Source: an uncultured Acidobacteriota bacterium
GTDB taxonomy: Bacteria > Acidobacteriota > Thermoanaerobaculia > Gp7-AA8
Length of the DNA: 64,000 bases
Direction of reading: 5' to 3'
NCBI GenBank assembly: GCA_963758195.1
Contig: CAVWUH010000002.1
Coordinates: 4,427,958-4,491,957 of the forward strand
Shown here piece after piece: positions 752 to 62,159 of this stretch. The translations under genes were made by a program, and so were the position numbers. A model generated the notes under the pieces. The model made no database searches. It saw only the letters and a program-made list of their open reading frames with translations, and was not told the origin of the DNA. Positions within the stretch are counted from its first letter, which is position 1, and every line of letters begins with the position of its first letter.

Positions 752-838
752 CAGATCGCGGTTTGCAGATCGCAGATCGCAGGAAAGGCGGCTCTCGCCG
801 CACGTCGCAGCGATCCGCGATCTGCATTCTGCGATCTC
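752..838. repeat. oligomer-armed hairpin (CAGATCG-type units)
   Basis: The left arm cagatcgcggtttgcagatcgcagatcgcagg faces the complementary right arm gcgatccgcgatctgcattctgcgatctc. Confidence 0.8.
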
Positions 839-851
839 ATCCGGCGAGGGA

Positions 852-924
852 GTTTCACGCGGAGACGCGGAGAACGCGGAGAGAGTTCGTCTCGACTCCG
901 CGCCCTCCGCGTCTCCGCGTGAAC
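852..924. repeat. family A palindromic repeat, copy A1
   Basis: GTTTCACGCGGAGACGCGGAGAACGCGGAGAG...CTCCGCGCCCTCCGCGTCTCCGCGTGAAC. The same termini recur at 38654, 40928 and 53113. Confidence 0.85.
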
Positions 925-1741: not shown

Positions 1742-1751
1742 TCGCCTGCGG

Positions 1752-1814
1752 GATTGAGGATGCAGGATTGAGGATTCGCCGCCCCCGGCATTCTCAATTC
1801 TCAATTCTCAATTC
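1752..1814. repeat. oligomer-armed hairpin (GATTGAG units)
   Basis: gattgaggatgcaggattgaggatt ... attctcaattctcaattctcaattc, lying between the two tRNAs. Confidence 0.8.
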
Positions 1815-24786: not shown

Positions 24787-24830
24787 GGATCTTGCGTGCC
24801 GACGTTCGGAGCGCACGCATCCTGCCTGCC

Positions 24831-24984
24831 GGACCGCCGGCGTCTCGCCGGCTGGAGTGAGGGCGTCCCGCGCCCTCACCCTCTCGCCATCGCGATTACT
24901 GAACATCAGCACGCAACTCGTCCTTGGCACCCAGGGCGGCGGCGCGGGACGCCGCCGCACCAGCCGGCGAGACGCCGGCGGTCC
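24831..24984. repeat. family B palindromic repeat, copy B1 (with enlarged centre)
   Basis: GGACCGCCGGCGTCTCGCCGGCTGG ... CCAGCCGGCGAGACGCCGGCGGTCC, between convergent genes. Confidence 0.85.
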
Positions 24985-25001
24985 GGAAGCTTGCGCCGCA
25001 C

Positions 25002-28054: not shown

Positions 28055-28117
28055 CATTCGGAGGCGCGGAGAGAAAGTATTCTGACGACCTCCGCATCTC
28101 CGCGTCTCCGCGTGAAC
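28055..28117. repeat. family A repeat, degenerate copy A2
   Basis: ..ttcggaggcgcggagag...cctccgcatctccgcgtctccgcgtgaac. The left terminus is eroded. Confidence 0.65.
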
Positions 28118-29347: not shown

Positions 29348-29414
29348 GGTTCACGCCGAGGCGCGGAGAGCGCGAAGGGTTTTTAACTTCGCGTGCTCCG
29401 CGTCTCCGCGTGAC
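29348..29414. repeat. family A repeat, copy A3
   Basis: ggttcacgccgaggcgcggagag...gctccgcgtctccgcgtgac. It contains the stop codon of the NRPS-like gene. Confidence 0.75.
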
Positions 29415-32145
29415 GATTCTCTCCTCGCGCCTTTTCCAGCGCCCCGCGCATCGCCTTCGCCAGCGAATCGACGTCGCCGCGGATCACGGTGTGGTGTTCG
29501 CCTTTCACGGGGAGGATGTCGAGGTCGTCGCAGAGGGCGCGCCAGCCGACGTCGGGGGTGGTGCCGTCGAAGCCCCAGCCGTGGCGAGCGAGGAAGAGGG
29601 TGACGCGGCCGGCGTAGGGGAGGAGCGCGTCGCGGCGTTGAATCGAAGCGAAATTGCGATTCATTTCCTGCATGTCGATCGGCGCGGTGCGGCGCACGAG
29701 TCCGAGGGCGCGGCGCGCGATGGCGCGGGCGTAGCGCGGGGCCTGGCTCATCGGCTTCTCGCGCAGGAGGGAGAGGTGCTTGAGATAGCTCTTCCACGAC
29801 GGCGTGCGTTGCGATGTCGCGGCGGCGTCGATGAGTCCGACGAACGCGACTTCGTGTCCGGCACGCGAGAGGAGCCGCGCGACGTCGAAGGCGATCACTC
29901 CTCCCGCCGAGTACCCGGCGACGTAGTACGGCCCCTCGGGCTGCACTTCGCGAATGGCGTCGACGTAACAGGCGGCGAGCGCGGCGAAGGTTTTCGGGAA
30001 GGCTTCGGCGGAGAAGCCATGGTGCGTGAGTCCGTAGAACGTCTGCGCGGACCCGAGGAGCGCGGCGAGCTCGCGGAAGATCATCACGCTGCCGCCTTTG
30101 CCGGAAACGCAGAAGAGGGGCGGGAGCGTGCCGTCGCCGCGTTGGACGAGGATCGCGGTGCGCTCGATGTCCGCTTCTCCGCGCGCGCGAAGGTAGTCGG
30201 CCATCTTGGCGACGGTGTTCAGCTCGAGGAGCAGCGAGAGCGGCATCGCGCGGCCGAGGATGCGATGGACTTCGGTGACCAGATGCGCGGCGACGACGGA
30301 TTCGCCTCCGAGATCGTCGAAGAAGTCGTCGTCGATGCAGACGTTGGTGCCGGTGATGCGCGACCAGATCTCGAGGAGCGCTCGTTCGAGATCGTCCGCG
30401 CCGTCATCGGTGCGCGCTTCGATGACATCGACGCGGAGCGTCAGCGCGTTGCGATCGACCTTGCCCGCGCCGGTCATCGGCATCGCCTCGAGGGCGTGGA
30501 GCTGCGAGGGGATCATCGACGAAGGAATCTTGTCGCGGAGTGCGGCGCGAAGCTCGCGCGGGAGGAAGGGCTTGCCCGCGGGCATCACGACGTAGGCGAC
30601 GAGCCGAAGCTCGCCCTGCGCGTCGGGCTTGCCGACGACGACCGCTTCGCGAACGCCGGCGAAGGTGACGAGCGCGGTTTCGATCTCCAGCGGATCGATG
30701 CGGCGGCCGTGGATCTTGAGGCGCGAGTCGGTGCGGCCGATGAAGTAGTAGAGGCCATCGGCGTCGCGCTTGACGAGATCGCCGGTGAAGGTCGTGCGCT
30801 GTTCACCGGCGCCGTTGCTGTCGAGCGCGAACTTCTGCGCGGTGAGCTCCGGAGCGTTCCAGTAGCCGTCGGCGACGTGCGCGCTGCGCACGACCAGCTC
30901 GCCGGGCTCGCCGTCCGGAACGTCGTTGCCTTCGTCGTCGATGAGGCGGACGTGCACGCCGGGGCGCGGGCGTCCGATCGGAACGAGCGGTCCGGGGATC
31001 GGTGTGTCGTGCGTGATGCTCATGTGCATCACCTGTCCCGCTTCGGTGGAGGCGAATCCGCGCTCGAAGGTGCAGGTTCGCGGAAAGCGCGCCTTGAACG
31101 CGTCGATGTCGGCGACGGTGACGACGTCGGCGCCGATGCGGAGCTTGCGGACGCTGGAGAGGTCGAGATCGTCGGGCGCGCTCTGCATGAAGCGGCGGAA
31201 GAGCGCGGGCGTGAGGGTGAGGATGGAGACGCGCTCGCGGCGGATGAACGCCGCCAGTGCATCGAGCGTTTCGTTGCGGGCGTCGAAGGCGCAGAGCGTC
31301 GCGCCGTTGAGGAGCGAGCCGAGGATCTCGTAGGTCGCGCGGGCGAATCCGGGGAGCGCGGTGTAGCTCACGCGCTCGCCGGCGGAACGGCCGTTGACGG
31401 CGGCCTGCGAGACGACGCGTTCGACGAACGAGCGCTGCCGGCTGGCGACCGCTTTCGGCGAGCCGGTGCTGCCGGAGGTGTAGGTGATTTGTACCAACTC
31501 GTTTGGGCAGCTCGCAGCTGGCAGCTGGCAGCTCGCAGGAGATTCGCTGAGAGCTGAAGCCGAGATCGCAGCTGGCAGCTGGCAGCTCGCAGGAGATCCG
31601 CTGCGAGCTGAAGCCGAGATCGCAGATCGCAGATCGCGGTTCGCAGGGACCCTGCTGAGAGCTGCGAGCTGCGAGCTGAGAGCTGAATCGGGGATCGGGA
31701 TTCGTTGCAGTGCAGCAGTTGCTGTCGGGGGACGGTCGATGTCGACGAGCGCGAGTGTCGCGCCCGACGCGGCGAGGATCATGGCGATGCGCTCGTCGGG
31801 ATCGGAGGCGTCGATAACGACGAAGAAGTGACCGGCTTTGATCGCGCCGAGGACAGCGGCGACGAGGGCGACGTTGTCGCGGGTGGCGATGGCGATCGGA
31901 TGTGCTACCGGCGCCTTCGCTGCGAGAAGATCGACGGCGATCGCATCAGACCAGCGATCGAGATCGGCGTAGCTGTAGCGAGCACGCGGCGACGTCAGCG
32001 CGATGGCATCGGGCGCAGAAGCAACGATGTCGCGAAAGCGCTCGGCGATCGACGTCTCGGCAGTGACCGTCGCCGCGCGCTCCTGCGATCCGCGATCTGC
32101 GATCTGCGATCTGGTTTTCGCGATCTGCGATCCGGTTACTGCCAT
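29383..32145 (-). CDS. single-module NRPS-like enzyme (adenylation - carrier protein - thioesterase)
   Basis: A-domain cores ITYTSGSTGSPKAV, FTGDLV, GRTDSRLKIHGRRIDPLEIE and GAGKVDR. Carrier motif DDLGGES. Thioesterase motif GYSAGG. No condensation domain. Start ATG 32145, 10 nt inside the permease gene. Confidence 0.85.
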   Translation of the reverse strand: MAVTGSQIAKTRSQIADRGSQERAATVTAETSIAERFRDIVASAPDAIALTSPRARYSYADLDRWSDAIAVDLLAAKAPVAHPIAIATRDNVALVAAVLGAIKAGHFFVVIDASDPDERIAMILAASGATLALVDIDRPPTATAALQRIPIPDSALSSQLAALSRVPANRDLRSAISASARSGSPASCQLPAAISASALSESPASCQLPAASCPNELVQITYTSGSTGSPKAVASRQRSFVERVVSQAAVNGRSAGERVSYTALPGFARATYEILGSLLNGATLCAFDARNETLDALAAFIRRERVSILTLTPALFRRFMQSAPDDLDLSSVRKLRIGADVVTVADIDAFKARFPRTCTFERGFASTEAGQVMHMSITHDTPIPGPLVPIGRPRPGVHVRLIDDEGNDVPDGEPGELVVRSAHVADGYWNAPELTAQKFALDSNGAGEQRTTFTGDLVKRDADGLYYFIGRTDSRLKIHGRRIDPLEIETALVTFAGVREAVVVGKPDAQGELRLVAYVVMPAGKPFLPRELRAALRDKIPSSMIPSQLHALEAMPMTGAGKVDRNALTLRVDVIEARTDDGADDLERALLEIWSRITGTNVCIDDDFFDDLGGESVVAAHLVTEVHRILGRAMPLSLLLELNTVAKMADYLRARGEADIERTAILVQRGDGTLPPLFCVSGKGGSVMIFRELAALLGSAQTFYGLTHHGFSAEAFPKTFAALAACYVDAIREVQPEGPYYVAGYSAGGVIAFDVARLLSRAGHEVAFVGLIDAAATSQRTPSWKSYLKHLSLLREKPMSQAPRYARAIARRALGLVRRTAPIDMQEMNRNFASIQRRDALLPYAGRVTLFLARHGWGFDGTTPDVGWRALCDDLDILPVKGEHHTVIRGDVDSLAKAMRGALEKARGENRHAETRSTRS
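31507..31690. repeat. oligomer-armed hairpin repeat inside coding sequence, with a 54-bp tandem duplication
   Basis: CAGCTGG/CAGCTCG/CAGATCG units. Units 31514-31567 and 31568-31621 differ at 2 of 54 positions. The complementary arm is cctgctgagagctgcgagctgcgagctgagagctg. Confidence 0.85.
32083..32135. repeat. oligomer repeat (GCGATCT units) at the 5' end of the NRPS-like gene
   Basis: ctgcgatccgcgatctgcgatctgcgatctggttttcgcgatctgcgatccgg, translated as GSQIAKTRSQIADRGSQ. Confidence 0.8.
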
Positions 32146-33667: not shown

Positions 33668-34782
33668 CGTTTTTCTGCGGGGGCTTTCGCGGCGTTGACG
33701 AATGTCGGATTCCACCATTTCGACGTTGCGATCGGGCCGTCGAGATAGCGTTGCTCGAGTGCCCAGTCGAGAAAGGGCTGCACCGCGGTCGCGTCGATGC
33801 GGCCGTCGCCCGAGATGGGGATCCAGCACGCTCGCCGGATGACCTCGGGTGGAAGTTTCGTGTAGCGGCTGAGAATCGCGACGTTGCGATCGGTTTTTCC
33901 TTCGCCGTAGCGGCGGGCGCCGTGGAGATAAGCGCGCATGAAGCGCTTGCCGAGCTCGGGATCGTCGTGCAGTAAACGCTGTCCGAAGATGAGCACGGAG
34001 TTCTGATGGCCGGGCTGCACTTCGCCGGCGGTGGCGACGATCTTCGCCCAGCCTTCTCCGATTGCGCTGCTGAGATTCGGCTCCGTCGTGAGGCGCACTG
34101 CGTCGAGCTTGTCGCGCGAAGAAGCGGCGGTGCCGTTCGGCAACTGCAGGACGACGACGTCCGCGGGCCTGAGTCCGCGCCGCGCGAGGAGGCGCATGGT
34201 GAGGTACTCCATGAGACCGCCGCGAATCAGCGCGATGCGCTCGCCGCGAAGACTGCCCCCCGCGGCTTCGATCCGCTTCGCCGTTTCGATCGGCGCGATG
34301 AAGGCATCGGATGTACAGCCGCGAGGATCGGCGTGACCTTTGTCGGCGACGATCTGCAGCGGAACGCCCTTGATGATCAGATTGAAGATGCCGGAGCGAA
34401 GTCCGGCCGAGAGCACGTCGATCTTTCCGGCGGCAGCGGCAGCGACGGCGGAGTTGGAATCGAGCGAGACGAATTCGGCGTCGATCCCTTCCTGCGCGAA
34501 GAACCCTTCGTCCTTCGCGATCATGATCGGCGCGTAGGTGAGGGTGGGGTTGACGTTGAGACGCACTTTCGCGGCGCTCACGGGTTGTTCGTGGCGGGAG
34601 CAGGAGAGAAACAAGAAGAGAGCGACCAAGCCAAGAACAGTCCCCTCTCCCCGCGTGAGCGGGGAGAGGGTTAGGGTGAGGAGTCGTTCTTTGCGCGAGG
34701 CAGAGCCCCTCACCCTAACCCTCTCCCCACCGCGATGAGGCTGCGGCGGGGAGAGGGGACTGAGAACGTGCTTGATCGTCAT
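33664..34782 (-). CDS. ABC substrate-binding lipoprotein (NMT1/SsuA-like) with repeat-derived insertion in the signal peptide
   Basis: This is the last 372 codons of track ORF 33664..36438. ATG 34782 overlaps the receptor stop (TGATG). The N-terminus is MTIKHV, then a 43-aa repeat-encoded segment, then LGLVALFLFLSC. Confidence 0.75.
   Translation of the reverse strand: MTIKHVLSPLSPPQPHRGGERVRVRGSASRKERLLTLTLSPLTRGEGTVLGLVALFLFLSCSRHEQPVSAAKVRLNVNPTLTYAPIMIAKDEGFFAQEGIDAEFVSLDSNSAVAAAAAGKIDVLSAGLRSGIFNLIIKGVPLQIVADKGHADPRGCTSDAFIAPIETAKRIEAAGGSLRGERIALIRGGLMEYLTMRLLARRGLRPADVVVLQLPNGTAASSRDKLDAVRLTTEPNLSSAIGEGWAKIVATAGEVQPGHQNSVLIFGQRLLHDDPELGKRFMRAYLHGARRYGEGKTDRNVAILSRYTKLPPEVIRRACWIPISGDGRIDATAVQPFLDWALEQRYLDGPIATSKWWNPTFVNAAKAPAEKR
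34639..34762. repeat. family D repeat, copy D1
   Basis: CAGTCCCCTCTCCCC...GGGGAGAGGGTTAGGGTGAGGGG...CCCCTCACCCTAACCCTCTCCCC...GGGGAGAGGGGACTG. The first 58 nt (minus sense) are identical to copy D2. It is flanked by AGAAC at 34634-34638 and 34763-34767. Confidence 0.85.
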
Positions 34783-36920: not shown

Positions 36921-37080
36921 GGAACGGTAGACAGGGGACGCTTGCACAAGTGGACCGCCGCCGTCTCGGCGGCTGGGGCGGCGCCGTCCCGGCGCCCGCG
37001 CGCGAGCGGCGAGACGCCGCTCGCCCAGCCGGCGGGACGCCGGCGGTCCGCTTGTGCAAGCGTCCCCTGTCCACCGTTCC
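36921..37080. repeat. family B repeat, copy B2, nested in a 30-bp outer inverted repeat
   Basis: Core at 36952-37049. The outer arms ggaacggtagacaggggacgcttgcacaag (36921-36950) and 37051-37080 pair with one mismatch. Confidence 0.85.
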
Positions 37081-38635: not shown

Positions 38636-38653
38636 ATGGGCCGCAAGCGAGGG

Positions 38654-38734
38654 ATTTCACGCGGAGGCGCGGAGGACGCGGAGAAAAAGATCATCACAGA
38701 TTTCTCTCCGTGTCTCCGCGTCTCCGCGTGAAAC
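38654..38734. repeat. family A repeat, copy A4
   Basis: ATTTCACGCGGAGGCGCGGAGGACGCGGAGA...CTCCGTGTCTCCGCGTCTCCGCGTGAAAC. Confidence 0.85.
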
Positions 38735-38749
38735 CAATCTCTGGCAGAC

Positions 38750-40913: not shown

Positions 40914-40927
40914 GCCGCAGCGAAAGA

Positions 40928-41006
40928 GTTTCACGCGGAGACGCGGGGGACGCGGAGAGTCGCAGGTAACCCCCACTCTCCGTGCTTCCGCGTCTCCGCG
41001 TGAAAC
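40928..41006. repeat. family A repeat, copy A5
   Basis: GTTTCACGCGGAGACGCGGGGGACGCGGAGAG...CTCCGTGCTTCCGCGTCTCCGCGTGAAAC. Confidence 0.85.
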
Positions 41007-41017
41007 CGAATTGCTGC

Positions 41018-44179: not shown

Positions 44180-44995
44180 TCAGAACGGATGCTCGAAGCT
44201 CAGATAGAGGAAAACCGCCTTGTCGTCGCTGGTCATGGGAAAGGCGATGCCGGGGACGATCTGCAGGTCGCGCGGAAGGTTGTAGGACCAGCGAATGCCG
44301 GGACTGACGATGAATTCCGAATCGTCTCCCGCTGATTCCGTGGTGCGCGTCCAGACGGTCTCGACGAGCGCGTTGAATCGATGAGTCGTGAGCCAGACGA
44401 AGCTCGTGCCCGCGGTGATGGAGTGAGAGTCCGCGGCCGGCGTGAAGGTCGCGCCGAGGTTCCAGTGCGCGACGATCGACGGCGTGAGCACGGTGCTGAC
44501 CGGAAGCATGACCTGGATGCCGGCGTCGCCGCTGCCGAGTCCGCGGCGCTCGCTGCCGGTCGGCACGAGCAATGTGATACGAGGCGAGACCGCGACGCGT
44601 GCGTCGGCATCGCCGATCCACTGATAGCGATAGTTCAGCGCGATGTCACCGATGCCGCGTTCCCCATTCACGCTGGCGATGGGAATCGTGTAGCTCAGCT
44701 GGTGATGAAGATTCGGAGCGGGCCACTCCTGTGTGAAGGAGTAGGCCCAGTCGCTGCCGCGCGTTCCGTGCGAGAAGGTCGAAATGTGCTGCACGACGTG
44801 CGGGCCCTGGTTGTATGCCTCTTCGATGAGGAAACTGTTGTCCTGAATGGGCGCGTCGTCCGGCTGCCCGTTCGTCTGGGCGTCGGTCTGGGCGAGGACC
44901 GGAAGTGCGGCGAGAAGAACCAGGAGACAGACCGCAGACCGCAGATCGCGGATCGCAGAAGACACCGCGAGCGGGAAACGACTCGGCACAACCAT
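44180..44995 (-). CDS. outer-membrane beta-barrel protein (transporter/MetA-like family)
   Basis: ATG 44995, a signal peptide, alternating beta-strand pattern, and C-terminal ..YLSFEHPF. Confidence 0.6.
   Translation of the reverse strand: MVVPSRFPLAVSSAIRDLRSAVCLLVLLAALPVLAQTDAQTNGQPDDAPIQDNSFLIEEAYNQGPHVVQHISTFSHGTRGSDWAYSFTQEWPAPNLHHQLSYTIPIASVNGERGIGDIALNYRYQWIGDADARVAVSPRITLLVPTGSERRGLGSGDAGIQVMLPVSTVLTPSIVAHWNLGATFTPAADSHSITAGTSFVWLTTHRFNALVETVWTRTTESAGDDSEFIVSPGIRWSYNLPRDLQIVPGIAFPMTSDDKAVFLYLSFEHPF
44928..44957. repeat. oligomer repeat (CAGACCG/CAGATCG units) inside the signal-peptide coding region
   Basis: cagaccgcagaccgcagatcgcggatcgcag encodes ..SSAIRDLRSAVC.. on the minus strand. 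Confidence 0.7.
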
Positions 44996-45161
44996 TGGAC
45001 CTCCCGAATTCTGCAAACGGATCGCGTCTGCAAGGATTCGTCTTCGATTTCGGATACGTATACATCGCGATCCATGATCCGCTCAACCTTTGCGGTTTTC
45101 GTGCGGAACCAATCCGGCCACGGTCTCGCCGCGTACTTCTGAGAAAACAAGGAGGCGATTC

Positions 45162-48908: not shown

Positions 48909-49007
48909 GGACCGCCGCCGTCCCGGCGGCTGGGGCGGCGGCGTCCCGCCGCCCGCCCGACGAGCGGCGAGACGCCGCTCGTCCAGCCGGCGAGACGCCG
49001 GCGGTCC
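48909..49007. repeat. family B repeat, copy B5
   Basis: GGACCGCCGCCGTCCCGGCGGCTGGGG...GTCCAGCCGGCGAGACGCCGGCGGTCC, between convergent genes. Confidence 0.85.
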
Positions 49008-53112: not shown

Positions 53113-53191
53113 ATTTCACGCGGAGGCGCGGAGGGCGCGGAGAGAAATGTCCGGCGATTCCTCCCGCGCCCTCCGCGTCTCCGCGTGAAAC
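53113..53191. repeat. family A repeat, copy A6
   Basis: ATTTCACGCGGAGGCGCGGAGGGCGCGGAGAG...CTCCCGCGCCCTCCGCGTCTCCGCGTGAAAC. Confidence 0.85.
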
Positions 53192-54451: not shown

Positions 54452-54454
54452 CGT

Positions 54455-54552
54455 CAGTAGGCAGTCGGCAGTACGCTTCGCTTGCAGTAGGCAGGAGCGG
54501 GAGCGCCGGTTGGTTTCGCTCCTGCCAACCGCCAACCGCCAACTGCCAACTG
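54455..54552. repeat. oligomer-armed hairpin (GGCAGT / CCAAC units)
   Basis: cagtaggcagtcggcagta...gcagtaggcaggagcg / cgctcctgccaaccgccaaccgccaactgccaactg. Confidence 0.75.
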
Positions 54553-55762: not shown

Positions 55763-55900
55763 CAGTCCCCTCTCCCCGCCGCAGCCTCATCGCGGTGGGG
55801 AGAGGGTTAGGGTGAGGGGCGATTTCTCGCGCAAGGGACGACCCCTCACCCTAGCCCTCTCCCCGTTCGCGATGAGGCTGCGAACGGGGAGAGGGGACTG
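55763..55900. repeat. family D repeat, copy D2
   Basis: It has the same 58-nt start as D1 in the opposite orientation, and ends ..GGGGAGAGGGGACTG. Confidence 0.85.
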
Positions 55901-57855: not shown

Positions 57856-57969
57856 GAATTGAGGATTGAGGATTGAGAATTGAGAATCGGAGGACGGGCA
57901 TCTTCTTCGCGTCTTCGCGTCTTCGCGTGAGACCGTTTCTCACGCGAAGCCGCGAAGAACGCGAAGGAC
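57856..57969. repeat. composite repeat: GATTGAG-unit arm (57856-57890) plus a CTTCGCGT-unit hairpin (57902-57969)
   Basis: gaattgaggattgaggattgagaattgagaat; cttcttcgcgtcttcgcgtcttcgcgtgagaccgtttctcacgcgaagccgcgaagaacgcgaagg. Confidence 0.8.
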
Positions 57970-59407: not shown

Positions 59408-59479
59408 GGTTGTCAGTTGTCGGTTGTCGGTTGTCTGCGAGACAGCGCATAACCTCACAGACAACTGACAACCGACAAC
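59408..59479. repeat. oligomer-armed hairpin (GTTGTC units)
   Basis: ggttgtcagttgtcggttgtcggttgtctg ... cagacaactgacaaccgacaac, between boxC and boxB. Confidence 0.8.
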
Positions 59480-61132: not shown

Positions 61133-61205
61133 GTGAGGCTCTCCTGAGGGTCGGCAATATAGTTCCGAATGCGTGCAACACTCTGAATTATTTCTCGGAG
61201 CGAAG

Positions 61206-62159
61206 TCATCTGGACCGCCGCCGTCTCGGCGGCTGGGCGAGCGGCGTCTCGCCGCTCGCGCGACGGCGGCGGGACGCCGCCGTCCCAGCCGGCGAGGACG
61301 CCGGCGGTCCACCGGATGGCGCTCCCCTGAGTAGTGTCTGCAAAGTCTCCTTCACCGAATGCCCTGTCGTTTCCACGACGAAATCCGCCCGCGAATACAA
61401 CGGCGTCCGCTCCTCGAGAATCCGCCGCAGATCGTCCATCGCCTGCGCCGATCCCGCCATCGGACGGTGATCCCCCTGCGCAATCACGCGCGCCATGTGC
61501 TCCTCGGGCGTCGCGCGGATCCACACCGTGAAGCAGTGCCGCAGCAGCGTCTCGTACGTCGCCGTCTCCGACACGATGCTCCCGCCCGTCGCCACGATGA
61601 AGCGCGGATGCGCTTCGAGCAGTTGCTGCAGCGCCTGCGCTTCGTAGCGTCGATACGCCTGCTGCCCATACAGCTCGAGAATCGAGCCGAGCGACGTGCC
61701 GGAGAGCCGCTCGATCTCGCGATCGAGCTCGAAGAACGGCACGTCCAACTCCCGCGCCAGCGCCGCCCCGATCGTCGTCTTTCCCGCGCCGCGCAGCCCA
61801 ACCAGCGCGATGCGATGCGCGCGCGACACATTCGCATCCGCCGCAAACCGCGACGCCAGCGACGCATGCGCCTCCTTCAACTGCTCCGGCGACAACCGCG
61901 CCAGAAACTGCCGCAACAACGTCATCTCCGCCGACGGACTCTCATCCTCCACGAGCCGCGTCAACGGCAACCCCAACGCCGACGCAATTTGCCGCAGAAT
62001 GAGGATCGAAGCGTTCCCCTTCCCCGACTCGAGCTGCGTGATGTACCGCTCCGAAATCCCCGCATGACTCGCGAGGAGCTTGCGACTCATCCCGCGCCGA
62101 GCGCGTTCACCACGAACGCGCTCGCCAAAGGCGCGGAGGAAGTCTTCGTCGGGGGTCAC
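61206..62159 (-). CDS. boxR: XRE-HTH plus shikimate-kinase-like transcriptional regulator (BoxR/BzdR type)
   Basis: HTH ..MSRKLLASHAGISERYITQLESGKGN... P-loop LVGLRGAGKTT. The last ~35 codons lie inside repeat B6. Confidence 0.7.
   Translation of the reverse strand: MTPDEDFLRAFGERVRGERARRGMSRKLLASHAGISERYITQLESGKGNASILILRQIASALGLPLTRLVEDESPSAEMTLLRQFLARLSPEQLKEAHASLASRFAADANVSRAHRIALVGLRGAGKTTIGAALARELDVPFFELDREIERLSGTSLGSILELYGQQAYRRYEAQALQQLLEAHPRFIVATGGSIVSETATYETLLRHCFTVWIRATPEEHMARVIAQGDHRPMAGSAQAMDDLRRILEERTPLYSRADFVVETTGHSVKETLQTLLRGAPSGGPPASSPAGTAASRRRRASGETPLAQPPRRRRSR
61212..61310. repeat. family B repeat, copy B6
   Basis: GGACCGCCGCCGTCTCGGCGGCTGGG...CCCAGCCGGCGAGGACGCCGGCGGTCC. 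Confidence 0.85.

What the first reader, a model, noticed from the sequence alone, without database searches (positions are those of the whole stretch)
31507..31690. Hairpin repeat embedded in frame inside the adenylation domain of the NRPS-like enzyme, with an 18-codon tandem duplication
The same kind of oligomer repeat that is otherwise intergenic lies inside the A-domain coding sequence. It sits just upstream of the core motif ITYTSGSTGSPKAV and downstream of AIKAGHFFVVIDASDP. It is translated as an Ala/Ser/Leu-rich low-complexity stretch of about 60 residues (..ALSSQLAALSRVPANRDLRSAISASARSGSPASCQLPAAISASALSESPASCQLPAAS..). Units 31514-31567 and 31568-31621 form a 54-bp (18-codon) tandem duplication with 2 mismatches. 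The frame stays open, so the insertion is either tolerated in a loop or selected.
Basis: seen in the sequence. Interest (0 to 1): 0.65.

Follow-up and report, generated by a model that had tools for sequence, protein, structure and literature searches.

The report
In-frame heptamer hairpin inside NRPS gene
A 180-base hairpin-forming repeat made of 7-base units sits in frame in a surface loop of an otherwise intact, selected peptide-synthetase-like enzyme of a soil acidobacterium; it looks like tolerated selfish or slippage-made DNA, a known kind of event and not a new mechanism.

Summary
Window 31507-31686 (minus-strand codons 154-213 of a 920-aa A-T-TE enzyme, 29383-32145) is made of heptamer arrays. 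It lies in frame between adenylation motifs A2 and A3.

Only the two closest orthologues (87% and 77% identity, same operon) carry repeat DNA at this site. One has a near-perfect (AGATCGC)4-loop-(GCGATCT)4 hairpin whose loop and right arm align in register with the window. The insert therefore predates their split, and the 2x54 nt are a later, lineage-specific duplication. More distant orthologues have a short, length-variable, non-repetitive linker.

The gene is under purifying selection (dN/dS 0.17-0.32) and all catalytic residues are intact. AlphaFold gives pLDDT below 50 essentially only in the insert and at the termini. The a2-a3 site is a documented permissive site.

A 63%-identical orthologue independently carries different 9-mer and 7-mer arrays, in the same loop and in the A-T linker.

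Best reading: a tolerated, disordered loop insertion derived from the genome's heptamer-repeat hairpins, growing by slippage. This is a new member of a known kind. The copy number of the 54-nt unit is not independently confirmed.

The parts
29383..32145 (-). A-T-TE (adenylation, carrier, thioesterase) NRPS-like gene, 920 aa, identical to database protein P0001. Its ATG at 32145 overlaps the stop of the upstream ABC permease gene.
   Evidence: ORF and translation. Pfam AMP-binding 1.5e-62, AMP-binding_C, PP-binding and Thioesterase. P0001 is a 100% match. Foldseek best hits are EntF, SrfA-C and AB3403.
31507..31686 (-). Repeat-derived in-frame segment, codons 154-213 (SALSSQLAALSRVPANRDLRSAISASARSGSPASCQLPAAISASALSESPASCQLPAASC).
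   Evidence: Pfam finds no domain in it. pLDDT is below 50 at residues 159-165 and 179-211.
31654..31686 (-). 5' (left) arm in gene orientation: (CAGCTCN) x about 4.7.
   Evidence: TRF period 7, 92% matches. Aligns in register with (CAGATCG)4 of L003 and (CAGCTCG)4 of L001.
31646..31653 (-). Hairpin loop (coding strand AGGGTCCC), shared with L003 (GGGTCCCC).
31617..31645 (-). Original 3' (right) arm, coding strand TGCGAAC CGCGATC TGCGATC TGCGATC T. It is almost identical to the right arm of the L003 hairpin, including the shared CGCGATC variant unit.
   Evidence: TRF 31617-31646, period 7. DNA comparison.
31563..31616 (-). 54-nt (18-codon) unit, copy 1. It contains a 10-bp stem, CAGCTCGCAG / CTGCGAGCTG, followed by (CCAGCTG)2.
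31509..31562 (-). 54-nt unit, copy 2. It differs from copy 1 at 3 bases, all of them non-synonymous (R>L, G>E, I>S). Its (GCCAGCT) arm pairs with the 5' arm in the predicted fold.
   Evidence: The substitutions were read directly.
31453..31485 (-). Adenylation core motif A3 (TYTSGSTGSPK, residues 221-231), immediately downstream of the insert.
   Evidence: invariant T223 S224 G225 T227 G228 K231.
31810..31845 (-). Adenylation core motif A2 (AIKAGHFFVVID, residues 101-112), upstream of the insert.
32076..32134 (-). Second heptamer array (AGATCGC family) in the same gene, translated as the N-terminal extension GSQIAKTRSQIADRGSQ. No ATG, GTG or TTG lies in frame between it and the start of the A domain.
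   Evidence: TRF. Sequence. The extension is present only in the three closest relatives. pLDDT is below 50 at residues 1-22.
753..837 (.). Intergenic hairpin built from the same unit, (AGATCGC)n - spacer - (GCGATCT)n. This is the non-coding counterpart of the insert.
   Evidence: (I7: 28-nt arms, 86% complementary).
44928..44959 (-). Heptamer array (CAGACCG/AGATCGC) that encodes the positively charged n-region (SAIRDLRSAVC) of the signal peptide of a MetA-pathway-like outer-membrane protein.
   Evidence: Pfam Phenol_MetA_deg.

Best explanation
The segment is a tolerated, in-frame insertion in the a2-a3 surface loop of the adenylation domain. It derives from the heptamer-array hairpins that litter this Thermoanaerobaculia-like genome.

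Shown:
- The ancestor of the window lineage and its two closest known relatives already carried a hairpin at this site, of the form (AGATCGC)4 - GGGTCCC loop - (GCGATCT)4.
- The enzyme has stayed under purifying selection since then, with all catalytic residues intact.
- The insert is predicted to be a low-confidence, domain-less loop between two beta-strands just before the P-loop.

Inferred:
- In the window/L001 branch the left arm was homogenised from AGATCGC to AGCTCGC, a concerted change in every unit.
- In the window lineage a 54-nt block carrying arms complementary to the new left arm was added. It was then tandemly duplicated by replication slippage or unequal exchange between the short direct repeats CTGCGA(T/G)CT that bound it.
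- Only length changes that are multiples of three survive, because frameshifts would destroy a selected enzyme.
- The units themselves have no stop codon in any frame, so the open frame comes for free.
- The peptide is a disordered Ala/Ser/Leu/Pro-rich loop with no required function.
For: Orthologue alignment: only P0001, P0002 and P0003 carry repeat-derived residues at this site. The a2-a3 linker is otherwise short and varies in length.

Synteny: the operon TonB receptor - NMT1 - ABC ATPase - permease - A-T-TE is the same in L001 and L003, so these are true orthologues.

Shared origin: L003 carries an in-frame near-perfect heptamer hairpin (MFE -75.2 against -42.1, z = -8.4). The left arm, loop and right arm of the window and L003 align in register.

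Selection: dN/dS is 0.17, 0.32 and 0.25 at dS of about 0.46-0.63. The A3 P-loop, A10 Lys562, the Ppant Ser616 and the TE residues Ser746/Asp773/His884 are invariant columns.

Structure: AF2 gives mean pLDDT 85 and pTM 0.81. Segments below 50 are only 1-22, 159-165, 179-211 and 914-920. The insert is flanked by strands 147-151 and 217-222.

Extra length: against LgrA, HMMER splits the alignment so that about 51 query residues face about 7 in the solved structure.

No domain in the insert.

Permissive site: natural and engineered methyltransferase-domain insertions are documented between a2 and a3 (TioN, MarQ; PMC11355689).

Independent recurrence: the L050 orthologue has different period-9 arrays in the same loop, and a perfect (ACGGACA)4.3 array in the A10-T linker, both in frame.

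The same heptamer sits in frame in the HrpB helicase inter-domain linker of another acidobacterial MAG.

The three differences between the two 54-nt copies are all non-synonymous, so there is no sign of constraint on the peptide.
Against: Hairpin potential is retained in two lineages. The newly added 54-nt units restore complementarity to the altered left arm. This could mean the structure itself is maintained, by selection or by a templated mechanism.

The loop and right arm are about 91% identical between the window and L003 despite dS of about 0.48, somewhat more conserved than expected for junk. The sample is small (45 nt).

There are no expression, proteomic or enzymatic data.

Independent reads confirm only 31618-31762 of the insert.
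Confidence: 0.7

Rival explanations
1. The hairpin is functional as nucleic acid. A stable mRNA (or DNA cruciform) structure inside the coding region is maintained by selection. It might pause ribosomes between A-domain sub-structures, or control mRNA stability or processing.
For: There is strong excess folding energy in the window (z = -4.1) and in L003 (z = -8.4). The L003 arms stay near-perfect despite dS of about 0.5. The window's new 54-nt units pair with the changed left arm.
Against: L001, the closest relative, has lost the loop and right arm and keeps only (CAGCTCG)4, yet the gene remains under strong purifying selection. More than 30 orthologues function without any such structure. 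There is no terminator-like tail and no Rfam match. Near-perfect arms are also expected from slippage-driven homogenisation of tandem units.
Confidence: 0.1
2. It is a contingency (phase-variation) locus. Slipped-strand gain or loss of single 7-nt units switches the enzyme on and off.
For: The unit length is not a multiple of three. There are two arrays in the same gene, at the N-terminus and internally. The copy number and composition of the arrays differ among the three relatives.
Against: The tracts are short and imperfect (at most 4.7 units, 86-94%), so slippage rates should be low. All three relatives are in frame. The one truncated orthologue examined (L061) is broken by frameshifts outside any repeat. 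No raw-read population data were available.
Confidence: 0.05
3. It is an assembly artefact. Either the whole insert, or the number of 54-nt copies, is wrong because the stretch is repetitive.
For: Short-read contigs from other runs break inside 31509-31617. Only 31618-31762 is matched exactly by an independent soil-metagenome run.
Against: Homologous repeat DNA sits at the same codon position in two independently assembled relatives. An exact independent contig spans the right junction. The two copies differ at 3 bases, which a collapse or expansion artefact would not create. Any copy number of a 54-nt unit keeps the frame, so the main conclusion is unaffected.
Confidence: 0.08
4. The inserted peptide has a selected protein-level role, for example a flexible docking or regulatory loop, or heptad-like amphipathic helices.
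For: AF2 draws two weak helices (155-163 and 169-180) in the insert. The stretch NRDLRSAIS is shared with L003.
Against: Confidence in the insert is low (10-residue blocks spanning 151-210 average pLDDT 30-62, with pLDDT below 50 at 159-165 and 179-211). There is no domain. The content and length of the insert differ completely among the three relatives (16, 25 and 58 residues). All 3 differences between the duplicated units are non-synonymous.
Confidence: 0.05

Closest known systems
Rickettsia palindromic elements (RPE), selfish palindromic repeats inserted in frame in protein-coding genes (Ogata et al. 2000, from my own knowledge; reviewed with other in-frame MITEs in PMC10969869, listed)
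   Same: Both are hairpin-forming dispersed repeats found in intergenic DNA and also in frame inside functional genes. The inserted peptide sits in a place compatible with the fold, and the host gene stays under selection.
   Different: RPEs are copies of a defined consensus of about 100-150 bp. Here the element is built from tandem 7-nt units. Its length and unit sequence change between close relatives, and no fixed consensus or transposase association has been shown.
Heptameric simple-sequence repeats of GC-rich, large bacterial genomes, such as the Xanthomonas GGGAATC and Nostoc GGGGA(T/C)T arrays and the Beggiatoaceae TAACTGA repeats (PMC4692102, PMC4679880)
   Same: Both are tandem 7-nt units, typically about 4 copies, strongly over-represented and mostly intergenic. 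Inverted arrangements able to form stem-loops have been noted. Copy number varies between relatives. The exact (AGATCGC)4 array occurs in 43 GTDB loci from many phyla.
   Different: Those repeats are reported as under-represented in coding regions and are discussed as regulatory or G4-forming. Here the array-hairpin is translated inside a conserved catalytic domain.
Interrupted adenylation domains, with methyltransferase domains inserted between a2 and a3 in TioN and MarQ (PMC11355689)
   Same: The insertion point in the A-domain fold is the same, between core motifs a2 and a3. This shows that the site tolerates large insertions without loss of adenylation.
   Different: Those inserts are folded catalytic domains with a function. 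This insert is 60 residues of low-complexity, domain-less, low-confidence sequence.

Membership tests
NRPS-type adenylation enzyme (ANL superfamily), A-T-TE architecture | AMP-binding, AMP-binding_C, PP-binding and thioesterase domains in this order | tested here: met
   Pfam hits 1.5e-62, 5.6e-15, 9e-12 and 7.9e-28. Foldseek finds EntF, SrfA-C and AB3403.
NRPS-type adenylation enzyme (ANL superfamily), A-T-TE architecture | Catalytic residues intact: A3 P-loop, A10 Lys, Ppant Ser, TE Ser/Asp/His | tested here: met
   T223 S224 G225 T227 G228 K231, K562, S616, S746, D773 and H884 are invariant in 35 orthologues and present in the window protein.
Interrupted adenylation domain | Extra segment located between core motifs a2 and a3 (or a8 and a9) | tested here: met
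   The insert lies between AIKAGHFFVVID and TYTSGSTGSPK.
Interrupted adenylation domain | The inserted segment is a folded auxiliary catalytic domain (M, KR or Ox) | tested here: not met
   There is no Pfam domain (best E-value 0.052, below cut-off). The segment is 60 aa of low complexity with pLDDT below 50 at 159-165 and 179-211.
Heptameric simple-sequence repeat (long SSR) | Head-to-tail copies of a 7-nt unit, at least 3 copies, more than chance | tested here: met
   Four period-7 arrays lie within 31507-31686. (AGATCGC)2 occurs 10 times against 0.16 expected.
Heptameric simple-sequence repeat (long SSR) | Copy number or composition varies between close relatives | tested here: met
   The window, L001 and L003 differ in arms and length at the same site.
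RPE-like in-frame palindromic element | Hairpin-forming repeat inserted in frame in a gene that remains functional | tested here: met
   Fold z-scores are -4.1 and -8.4. The insert is in frame. dN/dS is 0.17-0.32.
RPE-like in-frame palindromic element | Copies of one conserved consensus element dispersed in the genome | tested here: not met
   The 54-nt unit occurs only here in the window. Its 26-nt core has no match in the GTDB genomes. Other hairpins in the window share the architecture and sometimes the unit, but no long consensus. The rest of the 5 Mb genome could not be searched.
REP/REPIN or MITE | Association with a RAYT/TnpA transposase, or terminal inverted repeats with target-site duplication | not tested
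   I did not search for a transposase. No target-site duplication is evident at the insert borders by eye.
Phase-variable contingency locus | A long, perfect tract of a unit that is not a multiple of three, inside the ORF | tested here: not met
   The unit is 7 nt, but the tracts are at most 4.7 units and 86-94% perfect.
Phase-variable contingency locus | Frame-shifted length variants in the population | tested here: inconclusive
   All three relatives are in frame. Only assembled contigs were available, not raw reads.

The most novel reading that the evidence does not exclude
Oligomer-array hairpins may be a self-renewing class of element in Thermoanaerobaculia and related Acidobacteriota. 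On this reading their complementary arms are regenerated by a templated process, such as strand-switch or fold-back copying, and not simply inherited. They would repeatedly colonise the same permissive spots of genes: the a2-a3 loop, the A-T linker, N-termini and signal-peptide n-regions. That would make them a systematic source of new peptide segments with 7-residue periodicity. The window insert, whose newly added 54-nt units re-create pairing with a mutated left arm, would be a snapshot of that process.
Probability: 0.12. Interest if true: 0.55.

Novelty: new member of a known kind. Interest (0 to 1): 0.33.

Why it matters
It is a clean, datable example of repeat DNA becoming part of a conserved enzyme without breaking it. 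The insertion can be followed through three states in orthologous operons. It lands at the a2-a3 site that engineers already use for domain insertion. A more distant orthologue has been colonised independently at the same loop.

For annotation, Ala/Ser/Leu-rich low-complexity stretches and odd N-terminal extensions in proteins of these GC-rich soil bacteria can be translated heptamer arrays, not sequencing errors or pseudogenes.

For NRPS engineering, it adds natural evidence that the a2-a3 loop accepts about 50 extra disordered residues.

It does not reveal a new mechanism.

Tried and rejected
- Closer relatives: the metagenome-contig scan returned only orthologues of 55% identity or less. 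The GTDB scan returned 65% or less, and the source genome is not in that collection.
- The 54-nt unit as a dispersed element: its 26-nt core has no match in the GTDB genomes and none elsewhere in the window.
- Independent read support: four soil-metagenome runs were laid twice. Only 31618-31762 and the flanks are matched exactly. Contigs break in the duplicated part, and most depth there comes from other organisms' heptamer arrays.
- RNA evidence: no RNA run holds the gene.
- Known RNA families: nothing but two tRNAs.
- Internal terminator or promoter: none.
- Truncated orthologue P0019 as a possible frameshifted, phase-off allele: its locus L061 has several frameshifts and truncated neighbouring genes, and no repeat in the a2-a3 loop. 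It is unrelated decay or assembly error.
- Hairpin in the L050 loop: the fold is not significant (z = -1.55), so I call it arrays with partly complementary arms only.
- Census of in-CDS arrays: the scripted screen of the 43 (AGATCGC)4 loci used a crude ORF and GC3 filter. The script machine was then lost, so only L022, L004 and L030 were checked by hand. L022 and L004 are convincing. In L030 the only ORF of 150 aa or more listed over the array was not the coding-like one flagged.
- 'Stop-free unit' as a special property: rejected, because most GC-rich units in the window are also stop-free in all frames (direct reading).
Full report
**1. What is there**

The finding lies on the minus strand inside a 2,763-nt gene (29383-32145). 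The product has AMP-binding, AMP-binding_C, PP-binding and thioesterase domains. It equals database protein P0001 (920 aa), which comes from a 5.08 Mb contig. The nearest named relatives are Thermoanaerobaculia (Acidobacteriota) MAGs. GC content is 59-68% along the window.

The ATG at 32145 overlaps the stop codon of the upstream ABC permease gene.

The repeat-derived stretch is 31507-31686, which is 180 nt or codons 154-213. TRF reports a period-54 array (31512-31664, 2.8 copies, score 227) and four period-7 arrays inside it. The repeat finder gives copies at 31509-31562 and 31563-31616 that differ at 3 bases, a degenerate third copy, and 12 inverted-repeat pairs.

The repeat is far beyond chance:
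- The 54-mer occurs 2 times against 0.00 expected.
- The AGATCGC dimer occurs 10 times against 0.16 expected.
- The fold of the insert is -99 kcal/mol against -80.4 +/- 4.6 for shuffles, z = -4.1.

**2. Anatomy in gene orientation**

Reading 5' to 3' on the coding strand, the parts are:
- A left arm, (CAGCTCN) x about 4.7 (31686-31654).
- A loop, AGGGTCCC (31653-31646).
- A right arm, TGCGAAC CGCGATC TGCGATC TGCGATC T (31645-31617).
- Two 54-nt units (31616-31563 and 31562-31509).

Each 54-nt unit holds a small perfect 10-bp hairpin (CAGCTCGCAG-8 nt-CTGCGAGCTG) followed by (CCAGCTG)2. In the predicted fold the left arm pairs with the (GCCAGCT)-type arm of the last unit, so the whole 180 nt forms a composite hairpin.

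The duplicated block is bounded by the short direct repeats CTGCGATCT and CTGCGAGCT. This is the signature expected of slippage or unequal exchange (an inference).

**3. Comparison with orthologues**

I aligned thirty-five orthologues. Thirty-one of the thirty-four orthologues of the window protein have a short, non-repetitive a2-a3 linker whose length varies by about 10-15 residues. Only the two closest carry heptamer DNA there: P0002 (87% identity) and P0003 (77%). P0014 carries a different repeat (see below).

P0002 and P0003 sit in the same operon: TonB-dependent receptor, NMT1-type binding protein, ABC ATPase, permease, A-T-TE.

L003 has an in-frame, near-perfect (AGATCGC)4 - GGGTCCCC - (GCGATCT)4 hairpin (-75.2 against -42.1 kcal/mol, z = -8.4). 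Its left arm, loop and right arm align in register with the window. They share the odd CGCGATC unit, and about 41 of 45 bases are identical across the loop and right arm.

L001 keeps only (CAGCTCG)4.

Parsimony therefore places an L003-like hairpin in the common ancestor. A concerted A>C change of every left-arm unit followed in the window/L001 branch. L001 then lost the right arm, and the window gained 2x54 nt.

The two 54-nt copies differ by 5.6%, against dS of about 0.46 to the nearest relative, so the duplication is recent. All three differences are non-synonymous (R>L, G>E, I>S).

**4. Is the gene alive, and where does the insert sit?**

dN/dS is 0.17 (window-L001), 0.32 (window-L003) and 0.25 (L001-L003).

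The P-loop, A10 Lys562, Ppant Ser616 and TE Ser746/Asp773/His884 are invariant columns, and all are present in the window protein.

AlphaFold2 with the orthologue alignment gives mean pLDDT 85.1 and pTM 0.81. The only segments below 50 are 1-22, 159-165, 179-211 and 914-920. The insert lies between strand 147-151 and strand 217-222, the strand that leads into the P-loop.

The model matches EntF, SrfA-C and AB3403.

Against LgrA, HMMER breaks the alignment so that about 51 residues of the query face about 7 of the solved structure.

The insert matches no Pfam family.

The a2-a3 position is the site at which methyltransferase domains interrupt TioN and MarQ, and at which they have been inserted experimentally (PMC11355689). 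This shows the site is permissive.

**5. The repeat family**

The window holds many hairpins whose two arms are tandem arrays of a 7- or 8-nt unit and of its reverse complement. The units differ from locus to locus:
- AGATCGC at 753-837.
- ACGCGGAG with TTTCAC/GTGAAA ends at 854-923, 38643-38745, 40917-41017 and 53114-53190.
- GGATTGA/GAATTGA at 1747-1814 and 57856-57887.
- TCTTCGCG at 57902-57966.
- GGTTGTC at 59408-59479.
- CAGTAGG/CTGCCAA at 54453-54552.

Most of these are between genes, but the AGATCGC family is also translated at two other places:
- It forms the N-terminal extension of this same gene (32076-32134, GSQIAKTRSQIADRGSQ). There is no alternative start codon downstream of it. 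The extension is present only in the three close relatives.
- It encodes the n-region of the signal peptide of a MetA-pathway-like outer-membrane protein (44928-44959, SAIRDLRSAVC).

The exact (AGATCGC)4 array occurs in 43 loci of GTDB genomes from many phyla, often next to other heptamer arrays. In an acidobacterial MAG it lies in frame in the linker between the two helicase domains of HrpB (L022, RSQIADRRSQ), and in a membrane protein (L004).

A 63%-identical orthologue of the window gene (L050) carries its own, different arrays in frame:
- (GGACAGATG)2.4 - CCGCGGTT - (GTCCNATNC)4.8 in the same a2-a3 loop.
- A perfect (ACGGACA)4.3 in the A10-carrier linker.

The fold of that loop insert is not significant (z = -1.55). 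Another orthologue (L047) has no such arrays.

Colonisation of loops and linkers by oligomer arrays is therefore recurrent in this lineage.

**6. Explanation**

The best-supported reading is a tolerated insertion. A heptamer-array hairpin entered the a2-a3 loop in an ancestor. It persists because the site is permissive and the units contain no stop codon in any frame. It changes by slippage, homogenisation and duplication, and selection on the enzyme removes every length that is not a multiple of three.

The following are shown:
- The in-frame presence of the insert.
- Its shared origin with L003.
- Purifying selection on the gene.
- The loop location and the low predicted order.
- Independent recurrence in L050.

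The following are inferred:
- The mode of origin.
- The slippage mechanism of the 54-nt duplication.
- The neutrality of the peptide.

Rivals:
- A selected RNA or DNA structure. In its favour, pairing is retained, and even restored, in two lineages. Against it, L001 lost the pairing with no sign of relaxed constraint.
- Phase variation. Against it, the tracts are short and imperfect and all three relatives are in frame.
- Assembly artefact. Against it, homologous inserts occur in two independent assemblies, and an exact independent contig covers 31618-31762. The number of 54-nt copies remains unconfirmed.
- A functional peptide. Against it, the content differs completely among the three relatives.

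**7. Relation to known things**

The insert behaves like the in-frame Rickettsia palindromic elements and like in-frame MITEs, but it lacks a fixed consensus.

Its building blocks are the heptameric simple-sequence repeats known from GC-rich, large genomes. Those are reported as mostly intergenic, with occasional inverted arrangements (PMC4692102, PMC4679880).

Its position is that of interrupted A domains, but it is not one, because it holds no domain.

I found no paper on such repeats in Thermoanaerobaculia.

**8. Verdict**

It is an ordinary, if neat, case of repeat DNA tolerated in an enzyme loop, and a new member of a known kind. Interest is about 0.33.

Noticed in passing
window 32076-32134 (minus strand, codons about 4-24 of the A-T-TE gene): A second heptamer array (AGATCGC family) forms the N-terminal extension of the same enzyme (GSQIAKTRSQIADRGSQ). 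No in-frame ATG, GTG or TTG lies between it and the A domain. Only the three closest relatives have this extension; other orthologues start at M(T/A)SIAERF.
   Followed up: partly
window 44928-44959, within ORF 44180-45016 (minus): A heptamer array (CAGACCG/AGATCGC) encodes the arginine-rich n-region (SAIRDLRSAVC) of the signal peptide of a Phenol_MetA_deg-family outer-membrane protein. Repeat DNA appears to have been recruited as a signal-peptide segment.
   Followed up: partly
L050 3304-3375 and 4436-4465 (Thermoanaerobaculia MAG SMAG_U2052): A 63%-identical orthologue carries different in-frame arrays. Period-9 arrays with partly complementary arms sit in the same a2-a3 loop (IGQMGQMGPRLSHSSPSSDSSYPSHP). 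A perfect (ACGGACA)4.3 sits in the A10-carrier linker (HGQRTTDNGQ).
   Followed up: partly
L022 2390-2417 and L004 4861-4888 (Acidobacteria MAG BP6.bin107): (AGATCGC)4 lies in frame in the linker between the DEAD and Helicase_C domains of an HrpB helicase (RSQIADRRSQ). It also lies in frame in a multi-pass membrane protein (RDQIADRRSQIA).
   Followed up: partly
window 854-923, 38643-38745, 40917-41017, 53114-53190 (partial copy at 28088-28113): A REP-like hairpin family with conserved ends, TTTCAC(GCGGAGNC)n ... (GNCTCCGC)nGTGAAA. At least four copies lie between genes.
   Followed up: no
window 34661-34728 and 55797-55864: Two copies of another hairpin, GGGGAGAGGGTTAGGGTGAGG(GG) paired with its complement (21-23-nt arms, 96-100% complementary). 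The first lies upstream of the NMT1-type binding-protein gene of the same operon.
   Followed up: no
window 36921-37080, 24826-24989, 48953-49000, 61197-61325: A further GC-rich inverted-repeat family is built on GGACCGCCGGCGTCTCGCCGGCTGG. At 36921-37080 it forms a 160-nt palindrome (80-nt arms, 85% complementary, no spacer) that spans the 5' end of the TonB-dependent receptor gene at the head of the operon.
   Followed up: no
window 1747-1814: A heptamer-array hairpin, (GGATTGA)n ... (ATTCTCA)n, fills the 79-nt spacer between tRNA-Lys (1667-1741) and tRNA-Glu (1821-1896).
   Followed up: no
L061 2560-3060 (GCA_037975565.1, JBBCBH010013946.1): A 68%-identical orthologue is called only from A3 onwards. 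The upstream A1-A2 part is present but is broken by several frameshifts. The neighbouring receptor and binding-protein genes are truncated, and the ABC ATPase and permease genes are missing. This is either a decaying locus or an error-rich assembly. There is no repeat in its a2-a3 loop.
   Followed up: partly
L001 9776-10442 and 11122-12165: Downstream of the orthologous operon in the closest relative lie a 211-nt tandem repeat (2.7 copies, 93%) and a 354-nt repeat (2.9 copies, 80%) inside a large minus-strand gene.
   Followed up: no
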